Assembly (NCBI GenBank): GCA_035536815.1
Contig: DATLNJ010000055.1
Coordinates: forward strand, 923-64,922
Direction: 5' to 3'
Length of the DNA: 64,000 nt
From: Frankiaceae bacterium
GTDB taxonomy: Bacteria; Actinomycetota; Actinomycetes; BP-191
Shown here: in pieces, positions 636 to 39,159 of the stretch
How positions within the stretch are numbered: the first letter of the stretch is position 1
Layout: every line of letters starts with the position of its first letter
The notes under the pieces: model-generated
Told to the model about the DNA's origin: nothing
The model's input: only the letters and a program-made list of their open reading frames with translations
Database searches by the model: none
Position numbers and translations under genes: made by a program

Positions 636-2132
636 TCAGCCCTCCGCGGCCGCCGTGCCGCCGCCACCCCGGCCGCGGCCGCCGCGCCGGCGGCGCCGCT
701 TGGGCGCGTCGCCCTCGGCAGCGTCGCTCGACGCCGGGACCGACGCTGGGACATCGCCGGGCTCGCCGACCCGGGTACGCCGCCGCGACCGGCTGCGGAC
801 CTGGACGCGGGCGAGCGGGTTGCCGTCCTGGTCGGCCGGCGCGTCGGCCGGCTTCGGCGTGGTCGGGCGGGAGCGCTTGTGCTTGCGCCCGGTCTCGCCG
901 ACGTCCTCCAGCTCCTCCGCGTCGAGGCCCGCGCGGGTGCGCTGGGCGCGCGGCAGGACTCCCTTCGCCTCCTTCGGGATGTCGAGCGCGTCGAAGAAGT
1001 GCGCCGACGACGAGTACGTCTCCGCGGGGTCGGGGAACGGCAGCGACAGCGCGGTGTTGATCGCCGCCCACTTCACCATGTCGTCCCAGTCCACGAACGT
1101 CACCGCGACACCGGACTCGCCCGCGCGGCCGGTGCGGCCGATGCGGTGCAGGTAGGTGTTCTCGTCGTCGGGGCACTGGTAGTTGACGACGTGCGTGACG
1201 CCGCCGATGTCGATGCCGCGCGCGGCCACGTCGGTCGCGACGAGCACGTCGATCTTCCCTGAGCGGAACGCCCTGAGCACCTGCTCGCGCGCGCCCTGGG
1301 CGAGGTCGCCGTGCACGGCGCCGGCCGCGAAACCGCGTTCGGCCAGCTCGGTGCCGACCTTGTCGCACAGGCGCTTGGTCCGGCAGAACACCATCGTCAG
1401 CCCGCGGCCCTCGGCCTGGAGCAGCCGGGCGAGCAGCTCGATCTTGTCGAGGTTGTGCGCGCGGAAGACGTGCTGTTGCGTGGTCGGGACCGTCTGCTCC
1501 TCGTGCGCCTCCTCGGCGCGGATGTGCATCGGCTGCTTCATGAACTTGCGGGCCATCGTGATGATCGGGCCGGGCATGGTGGCCGAGAACAGCAGCGTCT
1601 GCCGCCCGGTCTCCTGCGTCAGCGCCATGATCCGCTCGACGTCCGGCTGGAAGCCCAGGTCGAGCATCTCGTCGGCCTCGTCGAGCACGAGCATCCGCAC
1701 GTCGCCGAGCTTGAGGTGACCCTGGCGGGCCAGGTCGAGCAGCCGGCCGGGGGTGCCGACGACGATGTCGACGCCCTTGCGCAACGCCTCGAGCTGCGGC
1801 TCGAACGCCCGCCCGCCGTAGATGGCGGTAACGCGGACGCCGCGGTTGTGGCCGGCCTTGGTGAGGTCGCCGGCGACCTGGATGCACAGCTCGCGGGTCG
1901 GTACGACGACCAGCGCCTGGACGACGCCGCGGCCGAGCTCGATGCGGTCGAGCAGCGGGACGCCGAACGCCAGCGTCTTGCCGGTGCCGGTCCGCGCCTG
2001 GCCGATCAGGTCGGCGCCGGTGAGGGCGATGGGGATGGTGAGCTCCTGGATCGGGAACGCGTTCTCGATCCCGAGCGTCTGGAGCGCGGCTACGGTCTCG
2101 GGGGATGCCCCGAGCTCGGCGAACGTGGACAA
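636..2132 (-). CDS. rhlE: DEAD-box ATP-dependent RNA helicase
   Basis: Q-motif FPIQ, Walker A AQTGTGKT-like (ARTGTGKT), VLDEADEML (DEAD), SAT, HRIGRTGR. Basic Arg-rich C-terminal tail. Confidence 0.95.
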   Translation of the reverse strand: MSTFAELGASPETVAALQTLGIENAFPIQELTIPIALTGADLIGQARTGTGKTLAFGVPLLDRIELGRGVVQALVVVPTRELCIQVAGDLTKAGHNRGVRVTAIYGGRAFEPQLEALRKGVDIVVGTPGRLLDLARQGHLKLGDVRMLVLDEADEMLDLGFQPDVERIMALTQETGRQTLLFSATMPGPIITMARKFMKQPMHIRAEEAHEEQTVPTTQQHVFRAHNLDKIELLARLLQAEGRGLTMVFCRTKRLCDKVGTELAERGFAAGAVHGDLAQGAREQVLRAFRSGKIDVLVATDVAARGIDIGGVTHVVNYQCPDDENTYLHRIGRTGRAGESGVAVTFVDWDDMVKWAAINTALSLPFPDPAETYSSSAHFFDALDIPKEAKGVLPRAQRTRAGLDAEELEDVGETGRKHKRSRPTTPKPADAPADQDGNPLARVQVRSRSRRRTRVGEPGDVPASVPASSDAAEGDAPKRRRRRGGRGRGGGGTAAAEG

Positions 2133-2223
2133 GCAAGAGCCTTTCGACAGGCTCGGCCCCGCGGTGCGCCGGCTTGCTCCCGGTTGAAGAGTCCGGGGCG
2201 CGCGCTACCTGGGGCGAGCGGCG

Positions 2224-2244
2224 TTGGAGAGCGACCGTCTCCAA
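2224..2244 (-). promoter_or_regulatory. 7-bp perfect inverted repeat in the helicase 5' leader region
   Basis: TTGGAGA-gcgaccg-TCTCCAA read directly from the sequence, in the 206-bp divergent intergenic region. Function unknown. Confidence 0.2.
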
Positions 2245-2338
2245 GGCCGCTCCGCTCCGGCACGACGTACCGGCGCGTCGATCACTTCCAACGCCGAGTG
2301 TACGCGAACCCGTTCCGCCGGAGGAGGCTCTTGCGATC

Positions 2339-3706
2339 ATGCCCACCAGTCGTGTCGCGCTCCTCGCGCTCCTCGCCGTCGCGGCCGTCGGCCACGCGCC
2401 GCTCGCCGCCGCCGCGCCGCCCAGCACACCCACCGCCGTCGTCGCGATCGTGGACACCGGCATCGACCCGTACCACCCGGCGTTCAAGGACACCTCGCCG
2501 CGGGCGTACCGGCACCCGTCGACCTACCTGCCCGGGTACCCGCGCGACGCCGTCGCGCTGCGGCTCGGGAAGTCGTTCGCCGCGGACTGCGCGCGCATCT
2601 GGCGGCACGTCCGGGCGGGCAAGCTCTACTGGTTCCCAGGCACCAAGATCGTCGGCGCGTACTCGACCGACCTGGTGCAGAAGGACACCGCCTGCAAGCA
2701 GCCCGCGACCTACGACGTGCTCGGGCACGGCACCATGACCGCCTCGCGCGCCGCCGGCAACCGCTACGGCGCCTGCCCCGCGTGCCGCATCGTGGCCGTG
2801 CAGTTCCAGTACGACTACGGCCTCGTCAACAGCAGGGAGGCCGAGACGTCCGCGGTGGCCGCCGTGAGCTGGCCGGCCGCGAACGCCTCGTGGATCGACG
2901 CGCAGTCGAACTCGTGGGGCCCGCTGCCGGCGTACGACCCGACGGGCACCGCGGGGCTGTTCGCCGAGGGCGCCGCGCTCACCCGGGCGGTCGAGGCGGC
3001 GTCGCGCAAGCACCTGACGTTCTGGGCGACCGGCAACGGCCTGGGAAACTTCGGCGGCGTCCTCGGGCAGCCGACGACCGTCATCGCCCACTACACGCCG
3101 TCCGCGATCCGGGTCGGCGGGCACGACTCGGGCCAGGTCACGCTCTGGCCCGGCCTCTCCCCGCACTTCGTCGGCGACGCGTGCGACAACTGGGCCGCCG
3201 TCGCCGGCACCGCCAGGTACGAGGAGCGCGCCGGCGGCGGCACGTCGGCCGCGACGCCGTACGTCGCCGGCGGGGCGGCGGCGGCGTTGCTGCACGCCAG
3301 GACGCTCACCCGCGACACCCGGACCGGCGTGCGCGGCGACGTCGTCGCGAAGGGCCGCCGGACGAAGGCGGGCCCGCTCGCCGACGGCGTGCTGACGCTG
3401 GCCGAGTGGCGGACGGTGGCGGAACGGACCGCGACCGCGCGCCCGACGGCGCAGCCCGAGGACGGGCCGCCGTGCGACGTGGCGAGCCCGTACGCGCCGC
3501 TGCCCGTGCGGTGGGCGGACGTGCCGGCCGCCGCGCCGGCGTACCCGCTGGTCGGCTGGGGCGCCGTCGACCGGGCCGCCGTGGCGCGGGCCCGCGCGGT
3601 GCTCGCCGGGACGGTGCCGCTGCCCGCGCGGGCCGAGGAGGAGACGTTCTTCGCCGCCGACCGGCAGGTGCGCGAGGCGCTGCACACGGTCTACCGGGGC
3701 GCCTGA
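2339..3706 (+). CDS. secreted S8 (subtilisin-like) serine peptidase
   Basis: ATG at 2339 with a signal-like MPTSRVALLALLAVAAVGHAPLAAA. Asp motif VAIVDTGID, His motif GHGTMTAS, Ser motif GGTSAATPYVAG. Confidence 0.85.
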   Translation: MPTSRVALLALLAVAAVGHAPLAAAAPPSTPTAVVAIVDTGIDPYHPAFKDTSPRAYRHPSTYLPGYPRDAVALRLGKSFAADCARIWRHVRAGKLYWFPGTKIVGAYSTDLVQKDTACKQPATYDVLGHGTMTASRAAGNRYGACPACRIVAVQFQYDYGLVNSREAETSAVAAVSWPAANASWIDAQSNSWGPLPAYDPTGTAGLFAEGAALTRAVEAASRKHLTFWATGNGLGNFGGVLGQPTTVIAHYTPSAIRVGGHDSGQVTLWPGLSPHFVGDACDNWAAVAGTARYEERAGGGTSAATPYVAGGAAAALLHARTLTRDTRTGVRGDVVAKGRRTKAGPLADGVLTLAEWRTVAERTATARPTAQPEDGPPCDVASPYAPLPVRWADVPAAAPAYPLVGWGAVDRAAVARARAVLAGTVPLPARAEEETFFAADRQVREALHTVYRGA

Positions 3707-3821: not shown

Positions 3822-6749
3822 ATGCCCACTGCTCTCGGCCGTTTCGTCGTGCCTGCGATCGCGGTTGCCGCGGTCGCGCTGGGCACGCAGGCCGTCGTCG
3901 CCACGCCTACTGTGCCCGCGGCGTCGTCGCCGCAGGCCGTCGCGCCGTACGCCACGGTGTCGACCGGCACGAAGGCGGTGTTCGTGCCGGTGACGCAGCG
4001 CCGGGTGCTGAGCACGACGTCGATCTCGCCGACGTCGCCGCGCCGGGTGACGGTGGCCGGGGTGGCGGGGGTGCCGACGGATGCGCTGGCGGTGGTGGTG
4101 AACGTCGCCGCGGTGAAGCCGGCGAAGGCGGGTTTCCTGGTGGCGTACCCGAGCGGGGCGTCGCGGCCGCCGACGGTGTTCACGCTGACGTACGCCGCCG
4201 GGCAGGTCGACGAGAGCGTGGCGACGGTCAAGGTCGGCTCGCTGCGGCAGATCGTGGTCTACGCGTCGACGACGGCGCCGGTGGTGGTGGACGTGGTCGG
4301 CTACTACGTCAACCACAACCACGACGACGCGTACCTGACGAAGGCGCAGGCGCAGGGGCGGACCGCCGCCAACGCGTTCCTCTGCCCGACCGGGTCGCTC
4401 ATCAAGTCGGTCGCGGCGGACGGCGCGACGACCTGCGTGCAGGACGCGACCGGCCCGGTCAGCGGCGTCGGCGCGGGTCTGCTGCTCGACAACGGCGTGC
4501 TGACCGCGGAGCAGCGCCGCAGCGCGCCGAACGCGTTCACCTGCCCGGCGGGGCAGTACCTGCGCTCGGTCGCCGCGGACGGCACGCCGACCTGCGTCGT
4601 GGACGCGACGGGCGGCGGCGGCGGGTTCTCGATCGGCGAGGGCCTGCTGCTGGCCGACGGCGTGCTGTCGGCGGAGCAGGGCCGCAGCGCCACGAACGCG
4701 TTCACCTGCCAGACCGGGCAGGTGCTGCGTGCGGTCGCGAAGGACGGCGCGCCGACCTGCGTCGTCGACAAGGACACCGACACCACGTACTCGGCGGGCT
4801 TCGGGATGCTGCTCGTCGGCAACGTGTTCTCCGCCGAGCAGGGGCGCAGCGCGGTGAACGCGTTCACCTGCCCGGCGGGTCAGTACCTGCAGGCGGTGGC
4901 GAAGGACGGCGCGCCGACCTGCGTCGCGGACAAGGACACCGACACGAACACGACGTACGGCGCGGGCTTCGGCCTGCTGCTGACGGACGGGGTGTTCTCG
5001 GCGGAGCAGGGGCGGAGCGCGGCGAACGCGTTCACCTGCGCGGTCGGGCAGTACCTGCAGTCGGTGGCGAAGGACGGCGCGCCGGTGTGCGCGCTCGACA
5101 AGGACACCAACACGACGTACAGCGCGGGGGTCGGCCTGCTGCTCGCGAACGGCGTGTTCTCCGCCGACCGGAGCGCGGCCAACGCGTACACCTGCCCGAC
5201 CGGTCAGTACCTCCAGGCCGTCGCGGCGAACGGCGCGCCGACCTGCGCCGTCGAGCGGGACACGACGTACGCGGCCGGCGCGGGCCTGTCGCTGGCGAAC
5301 GGCACCTTCACCGCCGAGCAGCGGCGCAGCGTGCAGAACGCGTTCACCTGCCCGCCCGGGCAGTACCTGCGGGTGGTCGCGGCCGACGGCACGCCGACCT
5401 GCGCGGCGGACGTGGACACGAACACGACGTACTCCGCCGGCTTCGGGCTGCTGCTGGCCAACGGCGTCTTCTCGGCCGAGCAGGGCCGTAGCGCGGCCAA
5501 CGCGTTCACCTGCCCGGCCGGCCAGTACCTGCAGGTCGTGGCTTCGAACGGCGCCCCGACCTGCGCGGCGGACCGCGACACCGACACGAACACGACGTAC
5601 GAGGCCGGCCTCGGCCTGCTCCTCGAGGGCAACGTGTTCAGCGCCGAGCAGTCGCGCGCGACGAAGTTCCCGTTCTTCTGCGAGCCGGGCACCTTCATGC
5701 GCGAGGTCGCCAACGACGGCTTCACGACGTGCGACGCCGACCAGACGGGGCCGACGTACACGCCGGGATTCGGTATCGGCATCGACGGGACCACGATCTC
5801 CGCGCAGCAGGGGCGCAGCGCGGCCGGCGCGTTCACCTGCCCGGCCGGGCAGTACCTGCGGCACATCGCCGCCGACGGCGCGCCGACCTGCGTCGCCGAC
5901 GCGGACACCAACACGACGTACTCCGCCGGCTCCGGCCTGGCGCTGACCGGGACCACGTTCTCGCTCGCCGAGGGCACCAGCATCGTCCGCGTGAAGGGCG
6001 ACTCGGCCGACGCCGTGGCGAACGGCACCCGGCTGCGGTCCGCGATCGGCGCGCTGCCGTTCGCCGCCACGATGGCCCGCCCGATCGTCGTCGTGCTGTC
6101 GCCGGGGACGTACGAGCTCGCCGCGCAGACGAACCTGGTCATCCCGCCCTACGTGACGCTGGCCGGGTCGGGCCGGGAGGCGACCGTGCTCGTCGGGTCG
6201 TACGGCGCGGGCAGCGCGGGGCTGATCGAGCTGGGCAACGGCTCGGCGCTCGCGTCGCTCACGGTCAAGAACTCCGCCGGCGTCAACGGCGCGGTGGCGC
6301 CCGTCGTCGTGAACGGCGGGACGTCGCGGGTCTTCGACGTCGTCGGGACCGCGACCGCCACGGCCGCCGGCCCCACGGCGTTCGGCCTGGTGGTGTTCAG
6401 CGGCGGCACCGTGGTCGTCGAGCGGTCGACGTTCACCGCCACCGGTCCGAGCAGCGCTTACGGGCTCTACGCCGTCGCGGCGGTGCTGCGCGGCACCGGT
6501 GTCGAGGCGACCGCGACCAGCGGGACCGGCGCCGCGTACGGCGCGGCCGCGGGCTCCGCCGGCATCGTGGAGCTGTCCGGCGGCTCCCTCAAGGCGGCGA
6601 GCACGTCCACCGGCACCCCGTACGTCGCCGCCGAGATCGGCGGGTCGGACATCGTCCGGGTCGCGCACACGAAGCTCACCGGCGGGCTCCTCGGCACGCC
6701 CACGTGCGTCGGCGCGTACGACGAGGCGTTCGCGCCGCGGACCTGCTGA
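3822..6749 (+). CDS. secreted repeat protein (fibre/adhesin-like), paralogue 1, 975 aa
   Basis: Signal peptide MPTALGRFVVPAIAVAAVALGTQAVVA. An N-terminal beta-rich module is followed by 10 Cys-loop repeats (FTCPAGQYLxxVAxDGxPTC) alternating with TTYSAGxGLLLxNGVFSAEQGRS. The Gly/Ala/Thr-rich C-terminal module is beta-helix-like. GC3-rich codon usage. Confidence 0.85.
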   Translation: MPTALGRFVVPAIAVAAVALGTQAVVATPTVPAASSPQAVAPYATVSTGTKAVFVPVTQRRVLSTTSISPTSPRRVTVAGVAGVPTDALAVVVNVAAVKPAKAGFLVAYPSGASRPPTVFTLTYAAGQVDESVATVKVGSLRQIVVYASTTAPVVVDVVGYYVNHNHDDAYLTKAQAQGRTAANAFLCPTGSLIKSVAADGATTCVQDATGPVSGVGAGLLLDNGVLTAEQRRSAPNAFTCPAGQYLRSVAADGTPTCVVDATGGGGGFSIGEGLLLADGVLSAEQGRSATNAFTCQTGQVLRAVAKDGAPTCVVDKDTDTTYSAGFGMLLVGNVFSAEQGRSAVNAFTCPAGQYLQAVAKDGAPTCVADKDTDTNTTYGAGFGLLLTDGVFSAEQGRSAANAFTCAVGQYLQSVAKDGAPVCALDKDTNTTYSAGVGLLLANGVFSADRSAANAYTCPTGQYLQAVAANGAPTCAVERDTTYAAGAGLSLANGTFTAEQRRSVQNAFTCPPGQYLRVVAADGTPTCAADVDTNTTYSAGFGLLLANGVFSAEQGRSAANAFTCPAGQYLQVVASNGAPTCAADRDTDTNTTYEAGLGLLLEGNVFSAEQSRATKFPFFCEPGTFMREVANDGFTTCDADQTGPTYTPGFGIGIDGTTISAQQGRSAAGAFTCPAGQYLRHIAADGAPTCVADADTNTTYSAGSGLALTGTTFSLAEGTSIVRVKGDSADAVANGTRLRSAIGALPFAATMARPIVVVLSPGTYELAAQTNLVIPPYVTLAGSGREATVLVGSYGAGSAGLIELGNGSALASLTVKNSAGVNGAVAPVVVNGGTSRVFDVVGTATATAAGPTAFGLVVFSGGTVVVERSTFTATGPSSAYGLYAVAAVLRGTGVEATATSGTGAAYGAAAGSAGIVELSGGSLKAASTSTGTPYVAAEIGGSDIVRVAHTKLTGGLLGTPTCVGAYDEAFAPRTC
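4332..5975 (+). repeat. in-frame tandem coding repeats (~135-141 bp unit, 10 copies) inside fibre gene 1
   Basis: Ten occurrences of the C-x16-C module and the TTYSAG/GLLL module, counted in the translation. Boundaries are approximate. Confidence 0.8.
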
Positions 6750-6782: not shown

Positions 6783-6821
6783 GGTGACCGTCCGTGGCTC
6801 TACTGTGTGCGGACCGTCACC
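6783..6821 (+). promoter_or_regulatory. conserved leader inverted repeat GGTGAC-N27-GTCACC upstream of fibre gene 2
   Basis: The extended arms GGTGACCGTCCG / CGGACCGTCACC pair at 11 of 12 positions. The shared core gtggctctactgtgt(t/g)cggaccgtcacc is present in both copies. Confidence 0.4.
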
Positions 6822-6833
6822 GAGGGAGTCTCG

Positions 6834-9563
6834 ATGCCCATTGCTCTCGGCCGTTTCGTCGTGCCTGTGATCGCGGTTGCCGCGGTCGCGTTGGGCACGC
6901 AGGCCGTTGTCGCCACGCCTACCGTTCCGGCGGCGTCGTCGCCGCAGGCGGTGGCGCCGTTCGCCACGGTGTCGACCGGCACGAAGGCGGTGTTCGTGCC
7001 GGTGACGCAGCGCCGGGTGCTGAGCACGACGTCGATCTCGCCGACGGCGCCGCGCAAGGTGACGGTGGCGGGGGTGGCGGGGGTGCCGGCGGACGCGACC
7101 GCGGTGGTGGTGAACGTCGCGGCGGTGAAGCCGGCGAAGGCGGGCTTTCTGGTGGCGTACCCGTCGGGGACGTCGCGGCCGGCGACGGTGTTCACGCTGA
7201 CGTACGCGGCTGGGCAGGTCGACGAGAGCGTCGCGACGGTGAAGGTCGGGTCGTTGCGGCAGATCGTCGTCTACGCGTCGACGACGGCGCCGGTGGTGGT
7301 GGACGTGGTCGGCTACTACGTGAACCACAACCACGACGACGCGTATCTGACGAAGGCGCAGGCGCAGGGCCGCACCGCCGCCAACTCGTTCCTCTGCCCG
7401 ACGGGCTCGCTCATCAAGTCGGTCGCGGCCGACGGCGCGACGACCTGCGTGCAGGACGCCACCGGTCCGGTGAGCTCGGTGGGTGGCGGGCTGCTGCTCG
7501 ACAACGGGGTGTTGAGCGGGCAGGGCCGGAGCGCGGCGAACGCGTTCACCTGCCCCGCGGGGCAGTACCTGCGCTCAGTCGCCGCGGACGGCACCCCGAC
7601 CTGCGACGCGGACCAGCTCGGCGAGGCCGGCACGACGTACTCGGCGGGCTTCGGGATGCTGCTGGTCGGCAACGTGTTCTCGGCGGAGCAGGGGCGCAGC
7701 GCGGTCAACGCGTTCACCTGCCCGGCCGGCCAGTACCTCCAGGCGGTCGCCGCCAACGGCGCGCCGACGTGCGTGACGGACAAGGACACCGACACCGACA
7801 CGAATACGACGTACGGCGCGGGCTTCGGGCTGCTGCTGACGGACGGGGTGTTCTCGGCGGAGCAGGGTCGCAGCGCGGCGAGCGCGTTCACCTGCGCGGT
7901 GGGCCAGTACCTCCAGTCGGTGGCCGCTAACGGCGCCCCGACCTGCGCCCTCGACAAGGACACCAACACGACCTACAGCGCGGGCGTCGGCCTGTTGCTG
8001 AACAACGGCGTGTTCTCCGCCGACCGCAGCGCGATGAACGCCTACGCCTGCCCGACGGGCTACTACCTCCAGGCGATCGCGCCCAACGGCGCCCCGACCT
8101 GCGGCCTCGAGAGGGACACCAACACCACCTACAGTGCGGGCGTAGGGCTGCTGCTGAGCAACGGCGTCTTCTCCGCCGACCGCAGTGCCGTCAGCGCGTA
8201 CACCTGCCCGGCGGGTCAGTACCTGCAGGCGGTCGCCGCCAACGGCGCCCCGACCTGCGTGACCGACAAGGACACGACGTACGCCGCGGGCCCGGGCCTG
8301 TCGCTGGCGAACGGCACGTTCACCGCGGAGCAGCGGCGCAGCGTGCAGAACGCGTTCACCTGCCCGCCGGGTCAGTACCTGCGGGTCGTCGCGGCGGACG
8401 GCACGCCGACCTGCGCGGCCGACATGGACACCGACACGAACACGACGTACTCGGCCGGGTTCGGCCTGCTGCTGGCGAACGGCGTCTTCTCGGCGCAGCA
8501 GGGGCGCAGCGCGGCCAACGCGTTCACCTGCGGCATCGGCGAGTTCCTGCGCTCGGTCGCCGCCGACGGGACGCCGACCTGTGCCATCGACAAGGACACG
8601 ACGTACACCGCCGGCTCCGGCATCTCGATCACCGGCAGCACGATCTCCGCGCAGCAGTCGCGGACGGCGGCGAACGCGTTCACCTGCCCGGCCGGCCAGG
8701 CGCTGCGGGTCGTGGGCGCCGACGGCGCCCCGACCTGCGTGGCGGTGCCGGCGTACACGGCGGGTCCGGGCCTGACGCTGAACGGCAGCACGTTCAGCTC
8801 GTCGTACGGGCCGACCGTGATCCCGATCCGCGCGGACGGCACGCCCGCGCAGAACGGCACGGCGCTCCGCAACGCGATGACCGCGGTGACCGGCGCCACC
8901 GAGCAGACTCCGTACGTCCTGGCGCTGGCGCCGGGCACCTACGACCTCGGCGCCGGCTCCAGCCTCGCGGCGCTGACCATGAAGCCGTACGTCTCGGTCG
9001 TCGGCGCGGGCCGCGGGTTCACGACGATCACGGGAGGCGTCGTCAGCCAGTCCGGCGGCCTCGTCAACCTCGGCAACAACACGACGCTCTCCGGCGTCAC
9101 GGTGCGCAACGCGGTCCCGACCGGGGTGAGCTGGGCGACGGCGATCATGTCCAACGGCGCCAACACCGCCCGGCTGCTCGACGTGCACGGGTACGCGTCG
9201 CAAGACGGCGGCGAGACGTACGGGCTGCTCGCGTTCGCCGGCAGCAACATCTCGGTCGAGAACTCACAGTTCACCGTGGTCAACCCGACCGCGACCGGCA
9301 CCGGCATCTACTCGGTCACGAACGCCACGGTGCGGGCCCGCAACGTCGAGGTCAGCCACGGCGCGGTCAGTGGCTGGGCGCTGCGCGTCTCCAACGCCTC
9401 GCGCATCGAGTTCGCCGACGGTTACGCCAACGGCGCGGTCCACCGTGCCACCCCCGACTCGGTCGTCCACCTCATGCACAGCAAGGTCGACGGCGCCGTC
9501 ACGGGCGGGGTGCAGTGCTTCGGGACCTTCACCTCGGCGATGGCGGCCGCGACCTGCGCGTGA
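6834..9563 (+). CDS. secreted repeat protein (fibre/adhesin-like), paralogue 2, 909 aa
   Basis: ATG at 6834 is positionally equivalent to 3822 (GGGAG RBS). The first ~190 aa are nearly identical to paralogue 1. It has 9 Cys-loop repeats and a diverged beta-helix-like C-terminal module. Confidence 0.85.
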   Translation: MPIALGRFVVPVIAVAAVALGTQAVVATPTVPAASSPQAVAPFATVSTGTKAVFVPVTQRRVLSTTSISPTAPRKVTVAGVAGVPADATAVVVNVAAVKPAKAGFLVAYPSGTSRPATVFTLTYAAGQVDESVATVKVGSLRQIVVYASTTAPVVVDVVGYYVNHNHDDAYLTKAQAQGRTAANSFLCPTGSLIKSVAADGATTCVQDATGPVSSVGGGLLLDNGVLSGQGRSAANAFTCPAGQYLRSVAADGTPTCDADQLGEAGTTYSAGFGMLLVGNVFSAEQGRSAVNAFTCPAGQYLQAVAANGAPTCVTDKDTDTDTNTTYGAGFGLLLTDGVFSAEQGRSAASAFTCAVGQYLQSVAANGAPTCALDKDTNTTYSAGVGLLLNNGVFSADRSAMNAYACPTGYYLQAIAPNGAPTCGLERDTNTTYSAGVGLLLSNGVFSADRSAVSAYTCPAGQYLQAVAANGAPTCVTDKDTTYAAGPGLSLANGTFTAEQRRSVQNAFTCPPGQYLRVVAADGTPTCAADMDTDTNTTYSAGFGLLLANGVFSAQQGRSAANAFTCGIGEFLRSVAADGTPTCAIDKDTTYTAGSGISITGSTISAQQSRTAANAFTCPAGQALRVVGADGAPTCVAVPAYTAGPGLTLNGSTFSSSYGPTVIPIRADGTPAQNGTALRNAMTAVTGATEQTPYVLALAPGTYDLGAGSSLAALTMKPYVSVVGAGRGFTTITGGVVSQSGGLVNLGNNTTLSGVTVRNAVPTGVSWATAIMSNGANTARLLDVHGYASQDGGETYGLLAFAGSNISVENSQFTVVNPTATGTGIYSVTNATVRARNVEVSHGAVSGWALRVSNASRIEFADGYANGAVHRATPDSVVHLMHSKVDGAVTGGVQCFGTFTSAMAAATCA
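7344..8805 (+). repeat. in-frame tandem coding repeats (9 copies) inside fibre gene 2
   Basis: Nine C-x16-C modules counted in the translation. Boundaries are approximate. Confidence 0.8.
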
Positions 9564-10817: not shown

Positions 10818-11042
10818 TCAGACGCGGCCGAAGCCGACTTTGCGGTCGTCGGGCTTCGCGACTTCGAGGTAGGCGATCTTGTCGACCGGGATCACCACGC
10901 GGTGGCCCTTCTCGTCCACCAGGCTGAACACGCCGCCGTCCACGAGGGCCTTGCTCAGCGCCTTCTCGACGTCCTCCGGCGACTTCTCGGTCTCCACGAC
11001 GAGCTCGCGGGGTGCGTACACCACGCCGATCTTGACCTCCAC
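10818..11042 (-). CDS. DUF3107-family protein (TB9.4-like)
   Basis: (M)EVKIGVVYAPRELVVETEKSPEDVEKAL...GHRVVIPVDKIAYLEV matches my recollection of the DUF3107 pattern. The second GTG (11042) sits 6 nt after GGAGG. Confidence 0.85.
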   Translation of the reverse strand: MEVKIGVVYAPRELVVETEKSPEDVEKALSKALVDGGVFSLVDEKGHRVVIPVDKIAYLEVAKPDDRKVGFGRV

Positions 11043-11255
11043 CACGTACCTCCGCGTCGTCGTCTCGCTGCTCGTCCCGAGGCTAGTCGATCCGCGCGCC
11101 GCGACGCTGCCCGGTACGCCGAGGGCGTAGCACTGCCCTGTCCGCCGCGGTACTGGCGAGGCGGGTGCGGGCCGGGCTACGGTCGGGGTCCCTACCTACG
11201 GCTGGCGCGCGGCGTCCAGCGGCCTCGCCCCGGCCCCTACCCGGAGAGGACCCCA

Positions 11256-11444
11256 GTGTCCAAGCGCACCCTGCGGCTCAAGAAGGAGTCGCTCACCCCG
11301 CTCGACAACGACAGCCTCGGCTCGGTCGTCGGCGGGATCAGCCTGCCCAGCCCGCAGTGCCTGCCGTACACGTTCCAGATCCCGTGCATCAACGACCTCA
11401 GCTTCGAGATCTGCCCGACGCTGCCCGTCGAGGACTGCCTCTGA
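11256..11444 (+). CDS. 62-aa RiPP/bacteriocin-like precursor peptide candidate (double-glycine leader, 4-Cys core)
   Basis: GGAGAGGA RBS lies 5 nt before the GTG at 11256. Leader is SKRTLRLKKESLTPLDNDSLGSVVGG and core is ISLPSPQCLPYTFQIPCINDLSFEICPTLPVEDCL. It lies inside a longer track ORF (10902..11444). Confidence 0.55.
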   Translation: MSKRTLRLKKESLTPLDNDSLGSVVGGISLPSPQCLPYTFQIPCINDLSFEICPTLPVEDCL

Positions 11445-11475
11445 CGGCCGCGCGCTGAGCCGCGAGCCCCCGGCG

Positions 11476-12123
11476 CTACGGCGTGCGGGGGCCGCGGGAC
11501 AGGCCGCGCCAGGCCAGGGAGACGAGCAGGTCCACCGCCCGCTCCTTCGACACGGAGCCGCCGGAGTTCAGCCACCAGCGGGCCGACACCTCGGCCAGCC
11601 CGGTGAGGCCGACGGAGAGCATCCGCGCCTCGGCCGCGCCGACGCCGGTGTCCTTCGCGATGGTGTCCGCGATGGCGTCGACGCAGGACCCGAGCGCGCG
11701 TTCGATCCGCTCGTTCACGGTGGGCTCGTTGCGCAGGTCGCTCTCGAACACCAGCCGGTACGCCGACCCCTTGGCGTCCACGAAGTCGAAGTACGTCGTG
11801 ATCGCGCCGCGGACGCGTTCCCTGTTGTCGTCCGTCGCGTCGAGCGCGGCCCGGATGCGGGTGACCAGGTCCTCGACCTGCGCGTCGAGCAGCGCGAGGT
11901 AGAGCTCCAGCTTGCTCGGGAAGTGCTGGTAGAGGACCGGCTTGCTGACGCCGGCATGCTCGGCGATCTCGTCCATCAACGTCGCGTGGTAGCCCTGCGC
12001 GACGAACACCTCGAGCGCCGCGTCGAGCAGCTGCGCGCGGCGCGCGTTACGGGGGAGGCGGCCGCCGCGGGGTGTCGCCGCGCGCTTGGCGGGGGTGGCG
12101 GGGCGGACCTGAGCGCGTGCCAT
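11476..12123 (-). CDS. TetR-family transcriptional regulator
   Basis: ATG at 12123 (MARAQV...). HTH region LLDAALEVFVAQGYHATLMDEIAEHAGVSKPVLYQHFPSK. Confidence 0.9.
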   Translation of the reverse strand: MARAQVRPATPAKRAATPRGGRLPRNARRAQLLDAALEVFVAQGYHATLMDEIAEHAGVSKPVLYQHFPSKLELYLALLDAQVEDLVTRIRAALDATDDNRERVRGAITTYFDFVDAKGSAYRLVFESDLRNEPTVNERIERALGSCVDAIADTIAKDTGVGAAEARMLSVGLTGLAEVSARWWLNSGGSVSKERAVDLLVSLAWRGLSRGPRTP

Positions 12124-19864: not shown

Positions 19865-20050
19865 CTCCGCGAGCTCGCGCCGACGCAGGCGCACGAGCTT
19901 GATTGCTTCGTTCTCCGCGTGGTCGAACCCGGCCCGCAGTGCGCGCTGCCGATCGGGCGCCAGAGACGCGAGCTCGGCCTGAGCTCGTTCGATCTCCGCC
20001 TGCAATGCTTCGGCGTTCGCCACCGCCGCGGCTCGTTCCGAACCGGTCAC
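19859..20050 (-). CDS. 63-aa coiled-coil protein translationally coupled to the deaminase gene
   Basis: GTG at 20050 overlaps the upstream TGA (GTGA), and GGGAGG lies 6 nt upstream. Helical heptad-like AAVANAEALQAEIERAQAELASL. Confidence 0.55.
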   Translation of the reverse strand: MTGSERAAAVANAEALQAEIERAQAELASLAPDRQRALRAGFDHAENEAIKLVRLRRRELAES

Positions 20051-21672
20051 GACGTGCCTCCCTTGGGTCGCGTACGCTGCGCCGGCGACGTGGGGGAAGA
20101 CCGACGGGACGTCGTGCGTCGTGTTGCCGACGATGGCGTCCCAGCCGCACCGGTGCTCACCTTAGCCATGTTGTCCTGGCGGTGTGACAGATTCGGGGGA
20201 CGCCCCGCGGAGCGACTGGCCGTGAAGGCGCCGAGAGCACTCAGTTCGCGGACCGCAACACCGTGGGGCTCCATGAACGGGTCGACCTTCGGGATGGCTG
20301 AGGCCCGTTCGGCTTCGCCCCACGGGCGTCTCGCTCCGGTGACGTCCTTGCGGTCGACCGTCACCGAGAACAGCGCGGCGTAGCGACGCGGGGCGATGCC
20401 GGTGAAGGGGTGGAACGACGCGCCCACCGCGGCGCCATACATCGACTCCGCCCGGCTCTTCGGGTAGGGCGCGAGGTACGTCACAGTCAGGCCGAGCGCC
20501 ACAAGATGCCGCGCGCAGTGGTGGCACGGAAAGGCCGTGACGAACATCGTCGTCCCCGCGATAGCCGCCCGACCGCGCAGCGCAGCCAGCAGCGCGTTCA
20601 TCTCGGCATGGACCGGTCTCTGGAACTCGATCAGCCCGCGGAGTCGCGACTGACGAAGCGGTCCGTTCAGCAACTCGTTCGCGAACTCGTCAGGGTCGGC
20701 GCCGAGGGCGGCTCGCGCGCGGTCGGCGAGCACGTCCGGCGGAAGCGACGCGAGCGTGTCGACGAGCAGCTCGGTGATGTCGATCAGGCTTGCGTCGAAA
20801 GTCGGAGCCGCACCGGCCTCAGGATGCGCGTTGTGTCCAAGCCCGACGACGTCGCCTGCCGCGGTTACCAGCGCGGCGCCCACCTTCAAACCGAGTTCGG
20901 ATGACCGCGTGCTCGCGATCTCCGCGACACTCATGCTGAACTCGGCGACGGTCGGCTGGCGGGCCCGCGGGCTGTCGAACAACAGGTCGACCACGCTCGT
21001 CACCTGCTGGGGCACATCGCGTTCGAGGTCGATGAAGACGTCCGCCATCGGAAACGCGAGGAGTGTGTTCTGGCCGAGTTCGTCGCGTTCGCGCAGGTCC
21101 CGCTCGATCAGCCTGGAGACGATCGAGCCGACATCTTGCGACGAGGCGCGCCGAAGCTTGATCTTGGCGTTCAGCTCCGTGGTCCGTCTCTCGATGCTTG
21201 CCTGTAACGAAACGACCACGAAGTGGTCGCCGTAGAGCCGGCGCAGATGGGTGATCTCGGCGGGACGCTTCAAGGAGTCGAGCAGATACGCGGTACGGGG
21301 CAGCGGGACACTCGCAGCGGCAGCGTCATCCTCGATGCCGCGCGCCGCGTTGCCCAGGCGCCGGATGCCCCTCATCGCCGCGACGCCAAGCAGCGCGACT
21401 GCGGAGCCGGTCTTCGATTCGTTGCAGAGGCGGTCGCCCTCGTCCATCAGCGCAGCGACTCGGTCCTCCTCGTGCCGCGTCGGGACGTCCTCGCCACGAC
21501 GCAACGCCTCGTTGCGGAGAAGGTCACTCAACTTTACGTCGTGGACTGCGTAGCGATACGAGGTGAGCGCTGCCCTCAGCGCGTCTTTGAACTCCTCGTC
21601 GGGCGTGCCGACCGGACGCACGACGCCGAACACCAGTTCCGGCCCAACGTCGGCGGTCGTCCCCGCTTCCAC
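20047..21672 (-). CDS. two-domain deaminase: degenerate P-loop-kinase-like N-domain + cytidine/dCMP-deaminase zinc domain (AvcD / anti-phage dCTP deaminase-like)
   Basis: N-terminus PELVFGVVRPVGT (Walker-A-like, no Lys). Deaminase signature HAEMNAL ... FPCHHCARHL. At 541 aa it is similar in size to the defence deaminases as I recall them. GC is locally reduced. Confidence 0.8.
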   Translation of the reverse strand: MEAGTTADVGPELVFGVVRPVGTPDEEFKDALRAALTSYRYAVHDVKLSDLLRNEALRRGEDVPTRHEEDRVAALMDEGDRLCNESKTGSAVALLGVAAMRGIRRLGNAARGIEDDAAAASVPLPRTAYLLDSLKRPAEITHLRRLYGDHFVVVSLQASIERRTTELNAKIKLRRASSQDVGSIVSRLIERDLRERDELGQNTLLAFPMADVFIDLERDVPQQVTSVVDLLFDSPRARQPTVAEFSMSVAEIASTRSSELGLKVGAALVTAAGDVVGLGHNAHPEAGAAPTFDASLIDITELLVDTLASLPPDVLADRARAALGADPDEFANELLNGPLRQSRLRGLIEFQRPVHAEMNALLAALRGRAAIAGTTMFVTAFPCHHCARHLVALGLTVTYLAPYPKSRAESMYGAAVGASFHPFTGIAPRRYAALFSVTVDRKDVTGARRPWGEAERASAIPKVDPFMEPHGVAVRELSALGAFTASRSAGRPPNLSHRQDNMAKVSTGAAGTPSSATRRTTSRRSSPTSPAQRTRPKGGTS

Positions 21673-21756: not shown

Positions 21757-22677
21757 TCAGCTCAGCGTCTTCGGCAGCTTCTGCTTGACGGTCAGCACCG
21801 GCGCGAACAGGTCGCCGACCTCCTCGGCCCGCTTCAGCGCCTCGTGCGCTTCGAACGTGATCGACGCCACGTCGTCCGTCTCCGCGCAGTGCGCGACCTC
21901 GTCCCACGTCACCGGCATCGACACGGTCGGCCGCGACTTCGCGCGCAGCGAGTACACGCAGGACGTCGTCTTGCTGTCGACGTTCTGGCTCCAGTCCACC
22001 AGGATCTTGCCGACCCGCAGCTCCTTCTTCTGCCGCGAGACGACGAGGTCCGGGTCCTCCTTCTCCAGCAGCAGGGCGACGTTCTTCGCGAACGGCGTCG
22101 TGGTGTCGTACGTCACGGACGGCTGGTTCAGCGGGACGTAGACCTGCAGGCCCTTGCTGCCGGAGACCTTCGCGTAGCAGTCGAGGCCGTTGCGGTCGAA
22201 CAGCTCCTTGAGCCGCAGCCCGACGACGCAGCACTCGTGCAGGTCGGCGGGCGCGCCGGGGTCGAGGTCGAAGACGACCATCGTCGGCTTCTGCGGCGTC
22301 TTGGCCAGCGCCATCGTCGTGTGCAGCTCGAGGTCCGCGAGGTTCGCGACCCAGACGAGCGCGGCGACGCCGTCGATGACGACGTAGTCGATGTCGCGGT
22401 CGTTGCTGTCGCTGTAGATCGGCGTCGTCTTGATCCAGTCCGGGCGGTGCTTCGGCGCCTGCTTCTCGAAGAAGAACGGCTGGTCCACGCCGTTCGGGTA
22501 GCGCTTCAACGTCAGCGGCCGGCCCTTGAGGTGGGGGAGCAGGACCGGCGCGATCCTCGAGTAGTAGTCGATGACCTCGGCCTTGGTGAACCCGACCTCC
22601 GGGTACAGGACCTTGTCGAGGTTCGACAGCGTGAGCTGCTTGCCCGCAACGGTGACGGCGACCTTCGACTCGGCCAT
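21757..22677 (-). CDS. ligD: LigD polymerase/primase domain protein (NHEJ)
   Basis: ATG at 22677 overlaps the upstream TGA (ATGA). KQLTLSNLDKVLYPEVGFTKAEVIDYY...RYPNG...FFEK...DLDP...SGSKGLQVYVPL are LigD-Pol hallmarks. Confidence 0.9.
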   Translation of the reverse strand: MAESKVAVTVAGKQLTLSNLDKVLYPEVGFTKAEVIDYYSRIAPVLLPHLKGRPLTLKRYPNGVDQPFFFEKQAPKHRPDWIKTTPIYSDSNDRDIDYVVIDGVAALVWVANLADLELHTTMALAKTPQKPTMVVFDLDPGAPADLHECCVVGLRLKELFDRNGLDCYAKVSGSKGLQVYVPLNQPSVTYDTTTPFAKNVALLLEKEDPDLVVSRQKKELRVGKILVDWSQNVDSKTTSCVYSLRAKSRPTVSMPVTWDEVAHCAETDDVASITFEAHEALKRAEEVGDLFAPVLTVKQKLPKTLS

Positions 22678-24119: not shown

Positions 24120-24178
24120 GCCGTCGGTCCTACCCCCGCCGGCGGCGGGTCAAGAACGCCGTGGCAGTATCCGGCGGC

Positions 24179-25207: not shown

Positions 25208-25285
25208 TCCACAGGCCCGGAGTCTTCGTCCACAGATTCGCCCCGGCGCCGCCACTGGGCGCCGCGCGCGGGCAGCGTTGTCGGC

Positions 25286-25876: not shown

Positions 25877-25965
25877 CGGCGTGGCGTGGAAAAGTGACGC
25901 CGCGGGTAGCACCATGATCAGGACAGGCGCGTGCCCACCGCGCCACCTGCTCGAAGGGGCTGCGC

Positions 25966-38765: not shown

Positions 38766-39076
38766 TGCGGGCCGGGCCGACGGAGTTCGGGGACCTCGTC
38801 CTCGAGGTCGTCGAACGGATCCCGCGCGGCCGAGTGATGTCGTACGGCGACATCGCGGAGTACCTCGGCCGCGGGGGACCCCGGGCGGTGGGGACGGCGC
38901 TGGCCAGATGGGGCGGCGGCGTCCCGTGGTACCGCGTGGTGACCAGCGACGGCCGCCCCAACCCGTCGGCGCCGGACGAGGCGGCGGCCCGGCTGCGGCG
39001 CGAGCGGGTGCCGTTCCGCGGGGAGCGGGTGGACATGCGGGCGGCCCGCTGGGACGGCCAGGACAGCCGAACGTAG
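38765..39076 (+). CDS. alkyltransferase-like (ATL) protein, MGMT DNA-binding fold without catalytic Cys
   Basis: GTG at 38765 overlaps the upstream TAG by 1 nt. RIPRGRVMSYGDIAEYLG ... VPWYRVV, where MGMT has PCHRV (Cys replaced by Trp). Confidence 0.8.
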   Translation: MRAGPTEFGDLVLEVVERIPRGRVMSYGDIAEYLGRGGPRAVGTALARWGGGVPWYRVVTSDGRPNPSAPDEAAARLRRERVPFRGERVDMRAARWDGQDSRT

Positions 39077-39159
39077 CCGTCGCGCCACACAGGTCCGTGC
39101 GACGAATCGGCCGAAACGTCGTTGCACCGGCAACACCCGCTCGCGTCAGGAGTTCCGTC

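What the first reader, a model, noticed from the sequence alone, without database searches (positions are those of the whole stretch)
11241..11444. Orphan RiPP/bacteriocin-like precursor: double-glycine leader and a 35-aa core with four Ser/Thr...Cys segments
A strong RBS (GGAGAGGA, 5-nt spacer) precedes a 62-codon ORF hidden inside a longer track ORF.

- **Leader:** SKRTLRLKKESLTPLDNDSLGSVVGG has the L-x-x-L...VxGG look of double-glycine leaders.
- **Core:** it splits into four segments, each ending in Cys and each with a Ser/Thr 3-6 residues upstream (ISLPSPQC / LPYTFQIPC / INDLSFEIC / PTLPVEDC). This is the N-to-C Ser/Thr-Cys pairing expected for four lanthionine rings, although disulfides are equally possible.
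- **Context:** no LanM/LanKC, C39-peptidase ABC exporter or other maturase is nearby. The gene sits between DUF3107 and TetR core genes.
Basis: partly seen in the sequence, partly recalled or inferred. Interest (0 to 1): 0.65.

Follow-up and report, generated by a model that had tools for sequence, protein, structure and literature searches.

The report
Orphan double-glycine RiPP precursor gene
A real 62-codon gene in a soil Frankiaceae genome encodes what looks like the precursor of a secreted, cysteine-cross-linked peptide, one of more than 200 such peptides that always lie far from any processing enzyme, so how they are matured is still unknown.

Summary
GTG 11256..11444 (+) follows GGAGAGGA and encodes 62 aa, with GC3 of 98%. 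The reading frame is conserved in relatives, including 3n indels and synonymous Cys codon changes.

About 30 close homologues keep the GG site, the leader leucines, four Cys and four Ser/Thr. The leader fits LxLxKx5L...GG, the motif of Bacteroidetes class I lanthipeptides. Its best family match is NF038153 at 17 bits, below the cutoff of 22; about 13 of 77 relatives reach roughly that score.

The gene belongs to a superfamily of over 200 peptides from uncultured soil Mycobacteriales and Frankiaceae. Leaders are conserved, cores are hypervariable, and many share the motif [ST]F[DE]xCPTxPxxxC. They occur singly, as here, or in tandem arrays of up to at least 35 genes beside mshC. The same MAG carries at least two more paralogues.

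No maturase or C39 exporter was found in the 64-kb window or in any of the other contexts examined.

Cys counts are as often odd as even, and Ser+Thr is at least equal to Cys in 194 of 206 peptides. This favours thioethers over disulfides.

Best reading: a precursor processed in trans, probably lanthipeptide-like. The chemistry is unproven.

The parts
11177..11183 (+). Conserved CTACnGT block (TACGGT here), about 73 nt upstream of the start. It is a possible -10 element (actinobacterial TAnnnT type) for the peptide gene.
   Evidence: Invariant columns in the 5-locus intergenic alignment. The consensus sigma-70 scan found nothing. Promoter function is inferred only.
11243..11250 (+). Shine-Dalgarno sequence GGAGAGGA, 5 nt before the GTG start.
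   Evidence: The GGAGAGGA/GGAAAGGA block and its spacing to the start codon are conserved in L002-L005.
11256..11444 (+). Precursor peptide gene: 62 aa plus stop, GTG start.
   Evidence: GC3 is 98%, and GC1 exceeds GC2. There are 7 close and about 30 family homologues. dN/dS is 0.4-0.8 with invariant scaffold residues. It is present as a called gene, 'hypothetical protein VNA20_07375', in a Frankiaceae MAG.
11256..11336 (+). Leader peptide, residues 1-27: L6-x-L8-x-K10-x5-L16 ... L21-x2-V24-V25-G26-G27. The predicted cleavage site is after G27.
   Evidence: NF038153 lant_leader_L1a matches residues 6-27 at 17 bits (cutoff 22). L6, L8, L13 and L16 are invariant, and K10, E11, L21, V24, G26 and G27 are >=90% conserved. 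The motif is described for class I LanAs in PMC7268733.
11337..11441 (+). Core peptide, residues 28-62 (35 aa, net charge -4). Conserved Ser/Thr-Cys pairs are S29/C35, T39/C44, S49/C53 and T55/C61.
   Evidence: Alignments A1-A4. AlphaFold2 gives no confident fold (pLDDT 51.6).
11400..11438 (+). Family hallmark motif S49-F-E-I-C53-P-T55-L-P-V-E-D-C61, i.e. [ST]F[DE]x(1-2)C-P-(xx)-T-[LIV]-P-x3-C.
   Evidence: E51, C53, T55, P57 and C61 are invariant in 31 close relatives. The motif regex is found in 107 of 206 superfamily peptides, including the L015 and L017 arrays.
11460..11497 (.). GC-rich hairpin between and over the convergent 3' ends of the peptide gene and the TetR gene. It is a possible bidirectional, I-shaped terminator.
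   Evidence: Minimum free energy is -38 kcal/mol for 11440-11500, with z = -1.84 against shuffles, which is marginal. There is no T-tail. Function is inferred.

Best explanation
The ORF is a genuine, translated small gene. It encodes the precursor of an exported, cysteine-cross-linked ribosomal peptide (RiPP).

**Proposed mechanism**
1. The 27-residue leader (LxLxKx5L...VVGG) is the handle for the modifying enzyme(s) and for a peptidase-containing ABC exporter, which cleaves after Gly27.
2. The 35-residue anionic core is cross-linked through its four conserved Cys.
3. The most likely chemistry is dehydration of S29, T39, S49 and T55, followed by Michael addition of C35, C44, C53 and C61. This would give four (methyl)lanthionine rings. 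The last two (S49-C53 and T55-C61) form a fixed C-terminal double-ring motif shared by the family.
4. The maturase and exporter are encoded elsewhere in the genome. They presumably serve many scattered, hypervariable precursors, a prochlorosin-like one-enzyme, many-substrates arrangement.

**Shown versus inferred**
- Shown: the gene is real and conserved, the leader family, the conserved residues, the orphan status, and the multi-copy hypervariable superfamily.
- Inferred: translation in vivo, export, cleavage site, any modification, lanthionine chemistry, and the trans-acting enzyme.

**Confidence by layer:** real gene about 0.95; GG-leader exported-peptide precursor about 0.75; lanthionine-type thioethers about 0.4. 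The overall figure of 0.55 is for 'trans-processed, Cys-cross-linked GG-leader RiPP precursor, lanthionine the leading candidate'.
For: **Coding**
- GC3 is 98% with GC1 > GC2.
- The RBS is conserved.
- Homologues at 70-84% identity keep the frame through 3n indels.
- Invariant Cys show synonymous TGC/TGT changes.
- Antisense frames are interrupted in relatives.

**Leader**
- NF038153 (class I lanthipeptide leader) is the only NCBIfam hit.
- It matches 29 of 31 close relatives at E<1. About 13 of 77 reach roughly its cutoff, against 1 of 77 for the rSAM-target model TIGR04149.
- NCBI names relative P0025 'class I lanthipeptide', and PF28317 Lant_leader_dom is precomputed on several relatives.
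- The leader fits the LxLxKx5L + GG motif that Walker et al. report for class I LanAs with C39 proteases (PMC7268733).

**Core**
- C35, C44, C53, C61, S29, T39, S/T49 and T55 are conserved.
- The hallmark [ST]F[DE]xCPTxPxxxC motif recurs across contexts.

**RiPP-like population genetics**
- There are 1-3 tandem paralogues at this locus type.
- Arrays elsewhere hold 8, 5 and at least 35 genes.
- Two more paralogues are in the same MAG (VNA20_00810 and VNA20_00815).
- dN is 2-5 times that of the flanking genes, on a fixed scaffold.

**Thioether rather than disulfide**
- Cys parity is 102 even to 104 odd.
- Ser+Thr >= Cys in 194 of 206 peptides.
- There is no confident autonomous fold.

**Precedent for distant precursors**
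- Prochlorosin precursors are encoded far from their LanM (PMC7268733; PMC10783134).
- Lanthipeptide protease genes can be unclustered (PMC8960859).
Against: - No LanB/LanC/LanM/LanKC/LanL, radical SAM, YcaO or C39-ABC gene was found in the 64-kb window.
- None was found within +-10 kb of homologues in L007 or L015/L016, nor in the 10 kb upstream of the asked gene in L017, whose contig ends about 3.8 kb downstream of it.
- So not one family member has been seen next to a maturase, and co-occurrence with any enzyme is untested.
- The window peptide is below NF038153's curated cutoff (17 vs 22 bits).
- This leader type is shared by other RiPP classes: TIGR04149 hits 7 of 31 close relatives at E<1.
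- The core is anionic, which is unusual for antibacterial lantibiotics.
- Conserved N46, D47, E51 and E59 next to Cys could instead be acceptor sites for other chemistry.
- dN/dS of 0.4-0.8 is only weakly purifying.
- There is no expression or peptide evidence.
Confidence: 0.55

Rival explanations
1. It is a RiPP precursor, but with a different cysteine chemistry. A radical-SAM enzyme could make sactionine or ranthipeptide thioethers to the conserved Asn/Asp/Glu or Thr, or another Cys-directed maturase could act. In either case the enzyme acts in trans on the same leader.
For: - The leader also resembles TIGR04149 (rSAM-modified GG peptides): 7 of 31 relatives at E<1, best 4.9e-4.
- N46, D47, E51 and E59 lie 1-3 residues from Cys and are invariant or nearly so.
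- Odd Cys counts fit any one-Cys-one-link chemistry.
- No LanBC has been seen near any member.
Against: - NF038153 outscores TIGR04149 throughout: about 13 vs 1 of 77 near the cutoff.
- Four hydroxyl residues are conserved N-terminal to each Cys at lanthionine-like spacings (i+4 to i+6).
- No radical SAM gene lies in the window or the other loci.
Confidence: 0.2
2. It is an unmodified double-glycine-leader bacteriocin or signalling peptide (class II-like). It would be cleaved and exported by an unlinked C39 ABC transporter and stabilised only by two disulfide bonds formed outside the cell.
For: - It has four Cys, an even number, as do all its closest type-A orthologues.
- No maturase is found in any context.
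- There is a weak Bacteriocin_IIc hit on relative P0025 (E 0.034).
- The GG leader has the canonical hydrophobic positions.
Against: - Family Cys counts are odd in 104 of 206 peptides.
- Four Ser/Thr are as conserved as the Cys.
- AlphaFold2 finds no compact disulfide fold (pLDDT 51.6, pTM 0.14).
- No exporter is nearby either, so absence of linkage does not favour this model in particular.
Confidence: 0.15
3. It is an intracellular small Cys-rich protein (metal-binding, redox or regulatory) tied to its conserved core-genome neighbourhood. The 'leader' would then be just an N-terminal amphipathic segment.
For: - Synteny between DUF3107 and the FasR-like TetR is stable in at least five loci.
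- No exporter is nearby.
- The core is anionic.
- Type-B paralogues carry CxxC...CxxC and give weak RING/zinc-finger hits (4 of 77, best E 5e-4).
Against: - The same family sits in unrelated neighbourhoods (SDR/MerR, ACAD, AsnC, mshC).
- It forms hypervariable tandem arrays of up to at least 35 genes. This is not how housekeeping proteins behave.
- The leader is homologous to curated RiPP leader models.
- No fold is predicted.
Confidence: 0.07
4. It is not a gene. It would be a chance open frame in a 74% GC intergenic region, conserved only as DNA (a regulatory region or UTR of the neighbours).
For: - Open frames are common at this GC content. Two other frames over the same span are also open in the window.
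- dN/dS is fairly high.
Against: - GC3 is 98% against 72% just upstream.
- Protein homologues occur in unrelated loci where the flanking DNA is unrelated.
- Codon-sized indels, a conserved RBS and start, and synonymous changes at invariant Cys all point to coding.
- Independent gene callers called it in several assemblies.
Confidence: 0.02

Closest known systems
Class I lanthipeptide precursors with the LxLxKx5L...GG leader (NCBIfam NF038153 lant_leader_L1a, Pfam PF28317; Bacteroidetes LanAs such as the pinensin type; Walker et al. 2020, PMC7268733)
   Same: - The leader architecture and motif are the same, with a GG end.
- This is the best-scoring known family for the window peptide and its relatives.
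- The core is rich in Ser/Thr and Cys, with Ser/Thr N-terminal to Cys.
   Different: - The host is actinobacterial (Frankiaceae/Mycobacteriales), not Bacteroidetes.
- The window peptide is below the curated cutoff.
- No LanB, LanC or C39 transporter is clustered with it, here or at any homologous locus seen.
- The core motif [ST]F[DE]xCPTxPxxxC was not found in the searchable literature.
Prochlorosins / ProcM system of marine picocyanobacteria (class II, Nif11 leader)
   Same: - There are many precursor genes per genome, with a conserved leader and hypervariable Cys/Ser/Thr-rich cores.
- Many lie far from the single synthetase.
- The leader ends in GG.
   Different: - The leader family differs (not Nif11).
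- The synthetase is unknown here.
- The phylum and habitat differ.
- This family keeps a fixed C-terminal motif.
- Tandem arrays reach at least 35 genes.
Class II double-glycine-leader bacteriocins exported by C39 peptidase-ABC transporters (PCATs)
   Same: - A GG cleavage motif with hydrophobic residues at -4, -7, -12 and -15.
- A small size of about 60 aa.
- The core could be disulfide-bridged.
   Different: - No transporter or immunity gene is adjacent.
- The core is anionic.
- Cys parity in the family is random.
- Ser/Thr residues are conserved.
TIGR04149 GG-leader targets of radical SAM maturases (CFB group) and ranthipeptides
   Same: - A similar LxLxKE..L...GG leader.
- A Cys-rich core with nearby acidic residues.
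   Different: - The HMM support is weaker.
- No rSAM gene is nearby.
- The hydroxyl-Cys pairing is conserved.

Membership tests
Class I lanthipeptide precursor, L1a leader type (NF038153 / PF28317) | The leader HMM scores at or above the curated cutoff (22 bits). | tested here: not met
   The window peptide scores 17 bits, E 0.0049. Among relatives, 29 of 31 match at E<1, and about 13 of 77 reach E<=1.5e-4, which I estimated to correspond to the 22-bit cutoff. P0025 is named 'class I lanthipeptide' by NCBI.
Class I lanthipeptide precursor, L1a leader type (NF038153 / PF28317) | An LxLxKx5L leader motif ending in Gly-Gly. | tested here: met
   L6-R-L8-K-K10-ESLTP-L16 ... G26-G27. These positions are invariant or >=90% conserved in the family.
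Class I lanthipeptide precursor, L1a leader type (NF038153 / PF28317) | The core has Ser/Thr donors and Cys acceptors, and they are conserved. | tested here: met
   The pairs are S29/C35, T39/C44, S/T49/C53 and T55/C61. Ser+Thr >= Cys in 194 of 206 relatives.
Class I lanthipeptide precursor, L1a leader type (NF038153 / PF28317) | LanB dehydratase and LanC cyclase are encoded with the precursor. | tested here: not met
   None is in the 64-kb window. None is within 10 kb of homologues in L007 or L015/L016, nor in the sequenced part of L017 (10 kb upstream, about 3.8 kb downstream to the contig end). The rest of the genome could not be searched.
Class I lanthipeptide precursor, L1a leader type (NF038153 / PF28317) | Dehydrated residues and (methyl)lanthionine rings are present in the mature peptide. 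| not testable with these tools
   This needs MS or NMR. The predicted core mass is 3907.88 Da unmodified and 3835.84 Da after 4 dehydrations.
Double-glycine leader peptides processed by C39 peptidase ABC transporters | GG (or GA/GS) at -2/-1, with hydrophobic residues at -4, -7, -12 and -15. | tested here: met
   V24 (-4), L21 (-7), L16 (-12), L13 (-15), G26-G27. Family leader ends are GG in 152, GA in 45 and AG in 7 of 206. The positional consensus is taken from my own knowledge of the family.
Double-glycine leader peptides processed by C39 peptidase ABC transporters | A cognate C39-ABC exporter gene lies nearby. | tested here: not met
   No ABC transporter or Peptidase_C39 hit was found on any of the 52 gene products scanned in the window.
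Prochlorosin-like one-enzyme, many-precursor system | Several precursors per genome, with a shared leader and hypervariable cores, some far from the enzyme. | tested here: met
   The same MAG carries P0001 (VNA20_07375), P0074 (VNA20_00810) and P0103 (VNA20_00815). Related contigs carry arrays of 3, 5, 8 and at least 35 genes.
Prochlorosin-like one-enzyme, many-precursor system | A Nif11-type leader and a ProcM-type LanM. | tested here: not met
   No Nif11/NHLP family hit was found. No LanM is in the window. The rest of the genome is not testable.
TIGR04149 rSAM-modified GG-leader RiPPs | An HMM match and an adjacent radical SAM maturase. | tested here: not met
   The window peptide has no hit. 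Relatives match in 7 of 31 at E<1 and 1 of 77 at E<=1.5e-4. No radical SAM gene lies in the window.
Disulfide-only class II bacteriocin | An even number of Cys conserved as pairs, with a foldable disulfide core. | tested here: inconclusive
   The window peptide and its type-A orthologues have 4 Cys. The wider family is 102 even to 104 odd. AlphaFold2 gives pLDDT 51.6.

The most novel reading that the evidence does not exclude
Uncultured soil Mycobacteriales and Frankiaceae may run an actinobacterial counterpart of the prochlorosin system.

- One unlinked, substrate-tolerant maturase would process dozens of scattered, hypervariable precursors. It could be a class I LanB/LanC pair using an LxLxKx5L-GG leader, or an undescribed Cys-directed enzyme.
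- All these precursors would carry a fixed C-terminal double-ring 'anchor', [ST]F[DE]xC-PT-xPxxxC.
- The window gene would be a conserved single-copy outpost of that library, sitting in the DUF3107/FasR core region.
Probability: 0.35. Interest if true: 0.75.

Novelty: new variant of a known kind. Interest (0 to 1): 0.55.

Why it matters
If the reading is right, this gene marks a large, undescribed library of RiPP precursors in uncultured soil actinobacteria.

- The library holds over 200 non-redundant peptides, with up to at least 35 genes in one array.
- Cluster-based genome mining (antiSMASH and RODEO style, which looks within a few genes of a maturase) would miss it, because the precursors are never next to their enzymes.
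- It would extend the 'one promiscuous enzyme, many substrates' logic of prochlorosins to Actinobacteria, and possibly to class I machinery.
- It would offer a natural scaffold (fixed C-terminal rings, variable N-terminal part) for peptide engineering.
- For annotation, it shows that 'hypothetical protein' ORFs of about 60 aa in GC-rich core regions can be real precursor genes.

Tried and rejected
- **Rfam, whole window:** no RNA family, so the region is not a known RNA.
- **Pfam on the peptide:** no hit.
- **PDB profile search:** no hit.
- **AlphaFold2 with a 23-sequence alignment:** no confident fold. This neither proves nor excludes a disulfide mini-protein.
- **Profile search of 1.8 billion representatives:** it returned large repeat proteins as top hits (P0033, P0034, P0042). 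Inspection showed cadherin- or Calx-like repeats without Cys, that is, summed spurious matches to 'VVGGxS'. Rejected.
- **Genome-contig scan:** only one locus, L007. A first attempt with the broad alignment failed for lack of a conserved stretch.
- **Metagenome-contig scan:** three loci, two of them false positives inside unrelated proteins (L012, L013).
- **Viral contigs pattern scan:** one false positive inside a GGDEF/EAL protein.
- **tblastn against plasmids:** nothing.
- **Literature string searches:** searches for the core motif and the LxLxKx5L motif found only Walker et al. 2020. Their supplementary precursor table, stored truncated, has no member with this core.
- **Labionin (class III SxxSxxC) reading of S29-x2-S32-x2-C35:** rejected because S32 is not conserved (N or Q in orthologues).
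- **Mersacidin-type TxS/TxEC lipid II motif:** not present, since Glu is two residues before Cys, not adjacent.
- **C-terminal AviCys:** rejected because the last residue is Leu/Val/Ile, not Cys.
- **AdnAB as LanM-sized candidates (41450-48059):** they are UvrD/PD-(D/E)XK helicase-nucleases.
- **S8 subtilases as LanP:** two are present (2105-3706 and 38908-40980) but no link could be shown.
- **Contig of the NCBI-named 'class I lanthipeptide' P0025:** it could not be fetched.
Full report
**1. What is in the sequence**

The window has 74% G+C. At 11243-11250 lies GGAGAGGA, followed by a 5-nt spacer and GTG at 11256. The frame stays open to TGA at 11442-11444. It encodes (M)SKRTLRLKKESLTPLDNDSLGSVVGG | ISLPSPQCLPYTFQIPCINDLSFEICPTLPVEDCL.

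The mechanical ORF list shows it as the tail of a 180-aa ORF, 10902-11444. Codon-position composition changes exactly at the GTG. Upstream, GC1/2/3 is .89/.57/.72, the mirror image of the DUF3107 gene on the other strand.

**2. It is a real gene**

A search of 5.8 billion proteins found the identical protein annotated as 'hypothetical protein VNA20_07375' in a Frankiaceae MAG. It also found six homologues of 70-84% identity. Adding tandem paralogues and searching with a profile raised this to about 30 close relatives.

Evidence that selection acts on the protein:
- In the syntenic loci (L002-L006) the frame is kept through codon-sized indels.
- The RBS and start region is conserved, identical in L003 and L004 and slightly varied in L002 and L005.
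- Invariant Cys show synonymous TGC/TGT differences.
- The antisense frame that shares third positions picks up stop codons in relatives.
- Clear homologues occur where the flanking DNA is unrelated: SDR-peptide-MerR-AhcY in L007, L008 and L011, and beside an acyl-CoA dehydrogenase in L009.

So conservation belongs to the peptide, not to a neighbour's regulatory DNA.

Pairwise dN/dS is 0.4-0.8, with dN of 0.11-0.24. For the adjacent DUF3107 and TetR genes in the same genome pairs, dN/dS is 0.08-0.25 and dN is 0.03-0.12. The gene evolves fast on a fixed scaffold. With GC3 near 100%, dS is compressed, so these ratios are upper bounds.

**3. Anatomy of the family**

- **Leader positions:** L6, L8, L13 and L16 are invariant. 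R4, K10, E11, L21, V24, G26 and G27 are >=90% conserved.
- **Core positions:** E51, C53, T55, P57 and C61 are invariant. T39, N46, D47, F50, P54 and E59 are >=90% conserved. C35, C44, S29 and S/T49 are conserved within the type-A and type-B subfamilies.
- **Leader motif:** the leader reads L-x-L-x-K-x5-L ... GG. Walker et al. report this motif for class I LanAs of Bacteroidetes that are clustered with C39 proteases (PMC7268733).
- **Double-glycine pattern:** hydrophobic residues sit at -4, -7, -12 and -15. This is the classic double-glycine leader pattern, a point from my own knowledge.
- **Family models:** the only NCBIfam hit is NF038153 'lant_leader_L1a, class I lanthipeptide' at 17 bits, below the curated cutoff of 22. 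It matches 29 of 31 close relatives at E<1. About 13 of 77 wider relatives reach E<=1.5e-4, which I estimated to be roughly the cutoff score. Only 1 of 77 does so for the rSAM-target model TIGR04149.
- **Existing annotation:** NCBI already names one relative (P0025) 'class I lanthipeptide'. Several carry precomputed Pfam PF28317 'Lant_leader_dom'.

**4. A much larger superfamily, always without enzymes**

A profile search of 1.8 billion representatives and a third word-index search gave 504 proteins at E<=0.1. They share the leader but have very diverse Cys/Ser/Thr-rich cores.

Their genes occur in these arrangements:
- Singly or as 2-3 tandem copies at this locus type.
- As an 8-gene array after an AsnC regulator (L014).
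- As 5 genes after mshC (L015/L016).
- As at least 35 consecutive small genes on both sides of mshC, running off a contig end (L017).

Many carry the same C-terminal motif as the window peptide, [ST]-F-[DE]-x(1-2)-C-P-(xx)-T-[LIV]-P-x3-C. It was found in 107 of 206 non-redundant peptides. Here it spans S49 to C61, at 11400-11438.

The MAG that holds the window has at least two more paralogues on another contig (VNA20_00810 and VNA20_00815).

Pfam scans of 52 of the ~57 called gene products across the 64-kb window found no LanB, LanC, LanM, LanKC/L, radical SAM, YcaO, ABC transporter or C39 peptidase; five small ORFs (61-108 aa) were not scanned. The neighbours are core genes known from mycobacterial synteny: a DEAD helicase, a MiaE-like ferritin-fold protein, SnoaL, DUF3107, a FasR-like TetR, an acyl-CoA dehydrogenase, AI-2E transporters, Ku/LigD, MoeB-like ThiF and AdnAB. 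The L007 and L015 loci have 10 kb on each side. L017 has 10 kb upstream but ends about 3.8 kb downstream of the asked gene, at the contig end. None of them shows a maturase.

**5. Which chemistry?**

Three observations bear on disulfides versus thioethers:
- Cys counts in 206 non-redundant cores are 102 even and 104 odd, and Ser+Thr >= Cys in 194. Disulfide-stabilised secreted peptides would be expected to keep even numbers.
- The hydroxyl residues 4-6 positions N-terminal to each conserved Cys are as conserved as the Cys themselves.
- AlphaFold2 with the family alignment gives no confident fold (pLDDT 51.6, pTM 0.14).

These favour one-Cys-one-link thioethers, and the leader model points to class I lanthipeptide machinery.

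The leader type is not exclusive to lanthipeptides, as the TIGR04149 hits show. Conserved N46, D47, E51 and E59 next to Cys leave room for radical-SAM thioethers or other chemistry. The core is anionic: -4 here, with a family mean of -2.1.

**6. Most likely mechanism (inferred)**

1. The 62-aa prepeptide is made from its own RBS. A conserved CTACnGT block at 11177-11183 may be its -10 element.
2. The leader is bound by an unlinked maturase, which dehydrates S29, T39, S49 and T55.
3. C35, C44, C53 and C61 then close four rings. The last two form the family's fixed C-terminal unit.
4. A PCAT cleaves after G27 and exports the 35-mer.

The scatter of precursors, the conserved leader and the hypervariable cores parallel the prochlorosin/ProcM arrangement. 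There, precursors lie far from a single promiscuous synthetase (PMC7268733; PMC10783134). Unclustered lanthipeptide proteases are also documented (PMC8960859).

None of the enzymatic steps is shown here.

**7. Comparison and novelty**

The peptide works like a class I, L1a-leader LanA, but it fails two membership tests: the HMM cutoff and clustered LanBC. I therefore do not file it as a member.

It resembles prochlorosins in genome organisation but not in leader family. I found no paper with the core motif strings or the array architecture.

I rate it a new variant of a known kind. The gene itself is a modest find. The superfamily it reveals is the interesting part.

**8. Limits**

- The rest of the MAG could not be read.
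- Most related contigs are short.
- The central question, which enzyme acts if any, remains open.

Noticed in passing
L017 4837-13980 (ENA ERZ1758341 NM_gr_Scaff09635988): At least 35 consecutive 50-78-aa genes lie on both sides of mshC: 7 upstream and 28 downstream, running off the contig end. All have the same leader and most have the [ST]F[DE]xCPTxPxxxC motif. This is one of the largest tandem precursor arrays I know of. No enzyme lies in the 10 kb upstream.
   Followed up: partly
window 20047-21672 (-): A 541-aa protein matches the PADLOC dCTP-deaminase anti-phage defence model (E 2e-102) and Pfam dCMP_cyt_deam_1. Its GC is 68% and GC3 is .82, against 74% and about .96 for the window. It is likely a horizontally acquired AvcD-like defence gene.
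   Followed up: partly
window 3822-6749 (+) and 6807-9563 (+): These are two tandem paralogues (975 and 918 aa, 61-63% identical). At least the 918-aa copy has eight repeats, spaced about 55 aa apart, each holding a Cys pair (CPxGQYLxxVAAxGxPTC). They have no meaningful Pfam or NCBIfam family. An ortholog fragment is in L003. They are probably secreted or surface repeat proteins of unknown function.
   Followed up: partly
window 2105-3706 (+); L015 287-1843 (-): An atypical S8 subtilase with no NCBIfam match lies about 7.5 kb from the peptide gene. It is 30% identical over 351 aa to an S8 that lies about 8 kb from the L015 precursor array. This could be a coincidence or an unclustered LanP-like leader protease. 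It was not tested.
   Followed up: partly
window 11077-11093 and 11115-11129: Two islands in the DUF3107/peptide intergenic region are conserved in five loci. One is the 17-nt block CCGAGGCTAGTCGATCC, invariant in all five, just upstream of the DUF3107 start. The other is the palindrome TACGCC-N3-GGCGTA, with one substitution in two loci; it is a candidate operator for a dimeric regulator, with the adjacent FasR-like TetR an obvious suspect.
   Followed up: partly
L002 1866-2066, L003 2795-2980, L005 1108-1305; window 11445-11475: Relatives carry a second, 'type B' paralogue (mostly 6 Cys, CxxC...CxxC) immediately downstream of the type-A gene. The window has lost it, or never had it, and only 31 nt separate the peptide stop from the TetR stop. 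L004 has about 250 nt of ORF-less DNA at that position, possibly a decayed copy.
   Followed up: partly
L009 2321-3120: Two overlapping genes lie directly upstream of a three-precursor array. They encode paralogous 135- and 131-aa proteins that appear to have hydrophobic N-terminal segments (not tested with a TM predictor) and a shared C-terminal 'VRLVVDGRxIxLxAPV...PDPAFEEKxATIxRY' region. They have no Pfam family. An immunity or accessory role is possible.
   Followed up: no
window 21757-26907 and 41450-48059: The window holds an NHEJ module (LigD primase-polymerase, LigD ligase/phosphoesterase and Ku) and an AdnA/AdnB-type helicase-nuclease pair. This fits mycobacterial-type core synteny and shows the ~1100-aa ORFs are not LanM.
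   Followed up: yes
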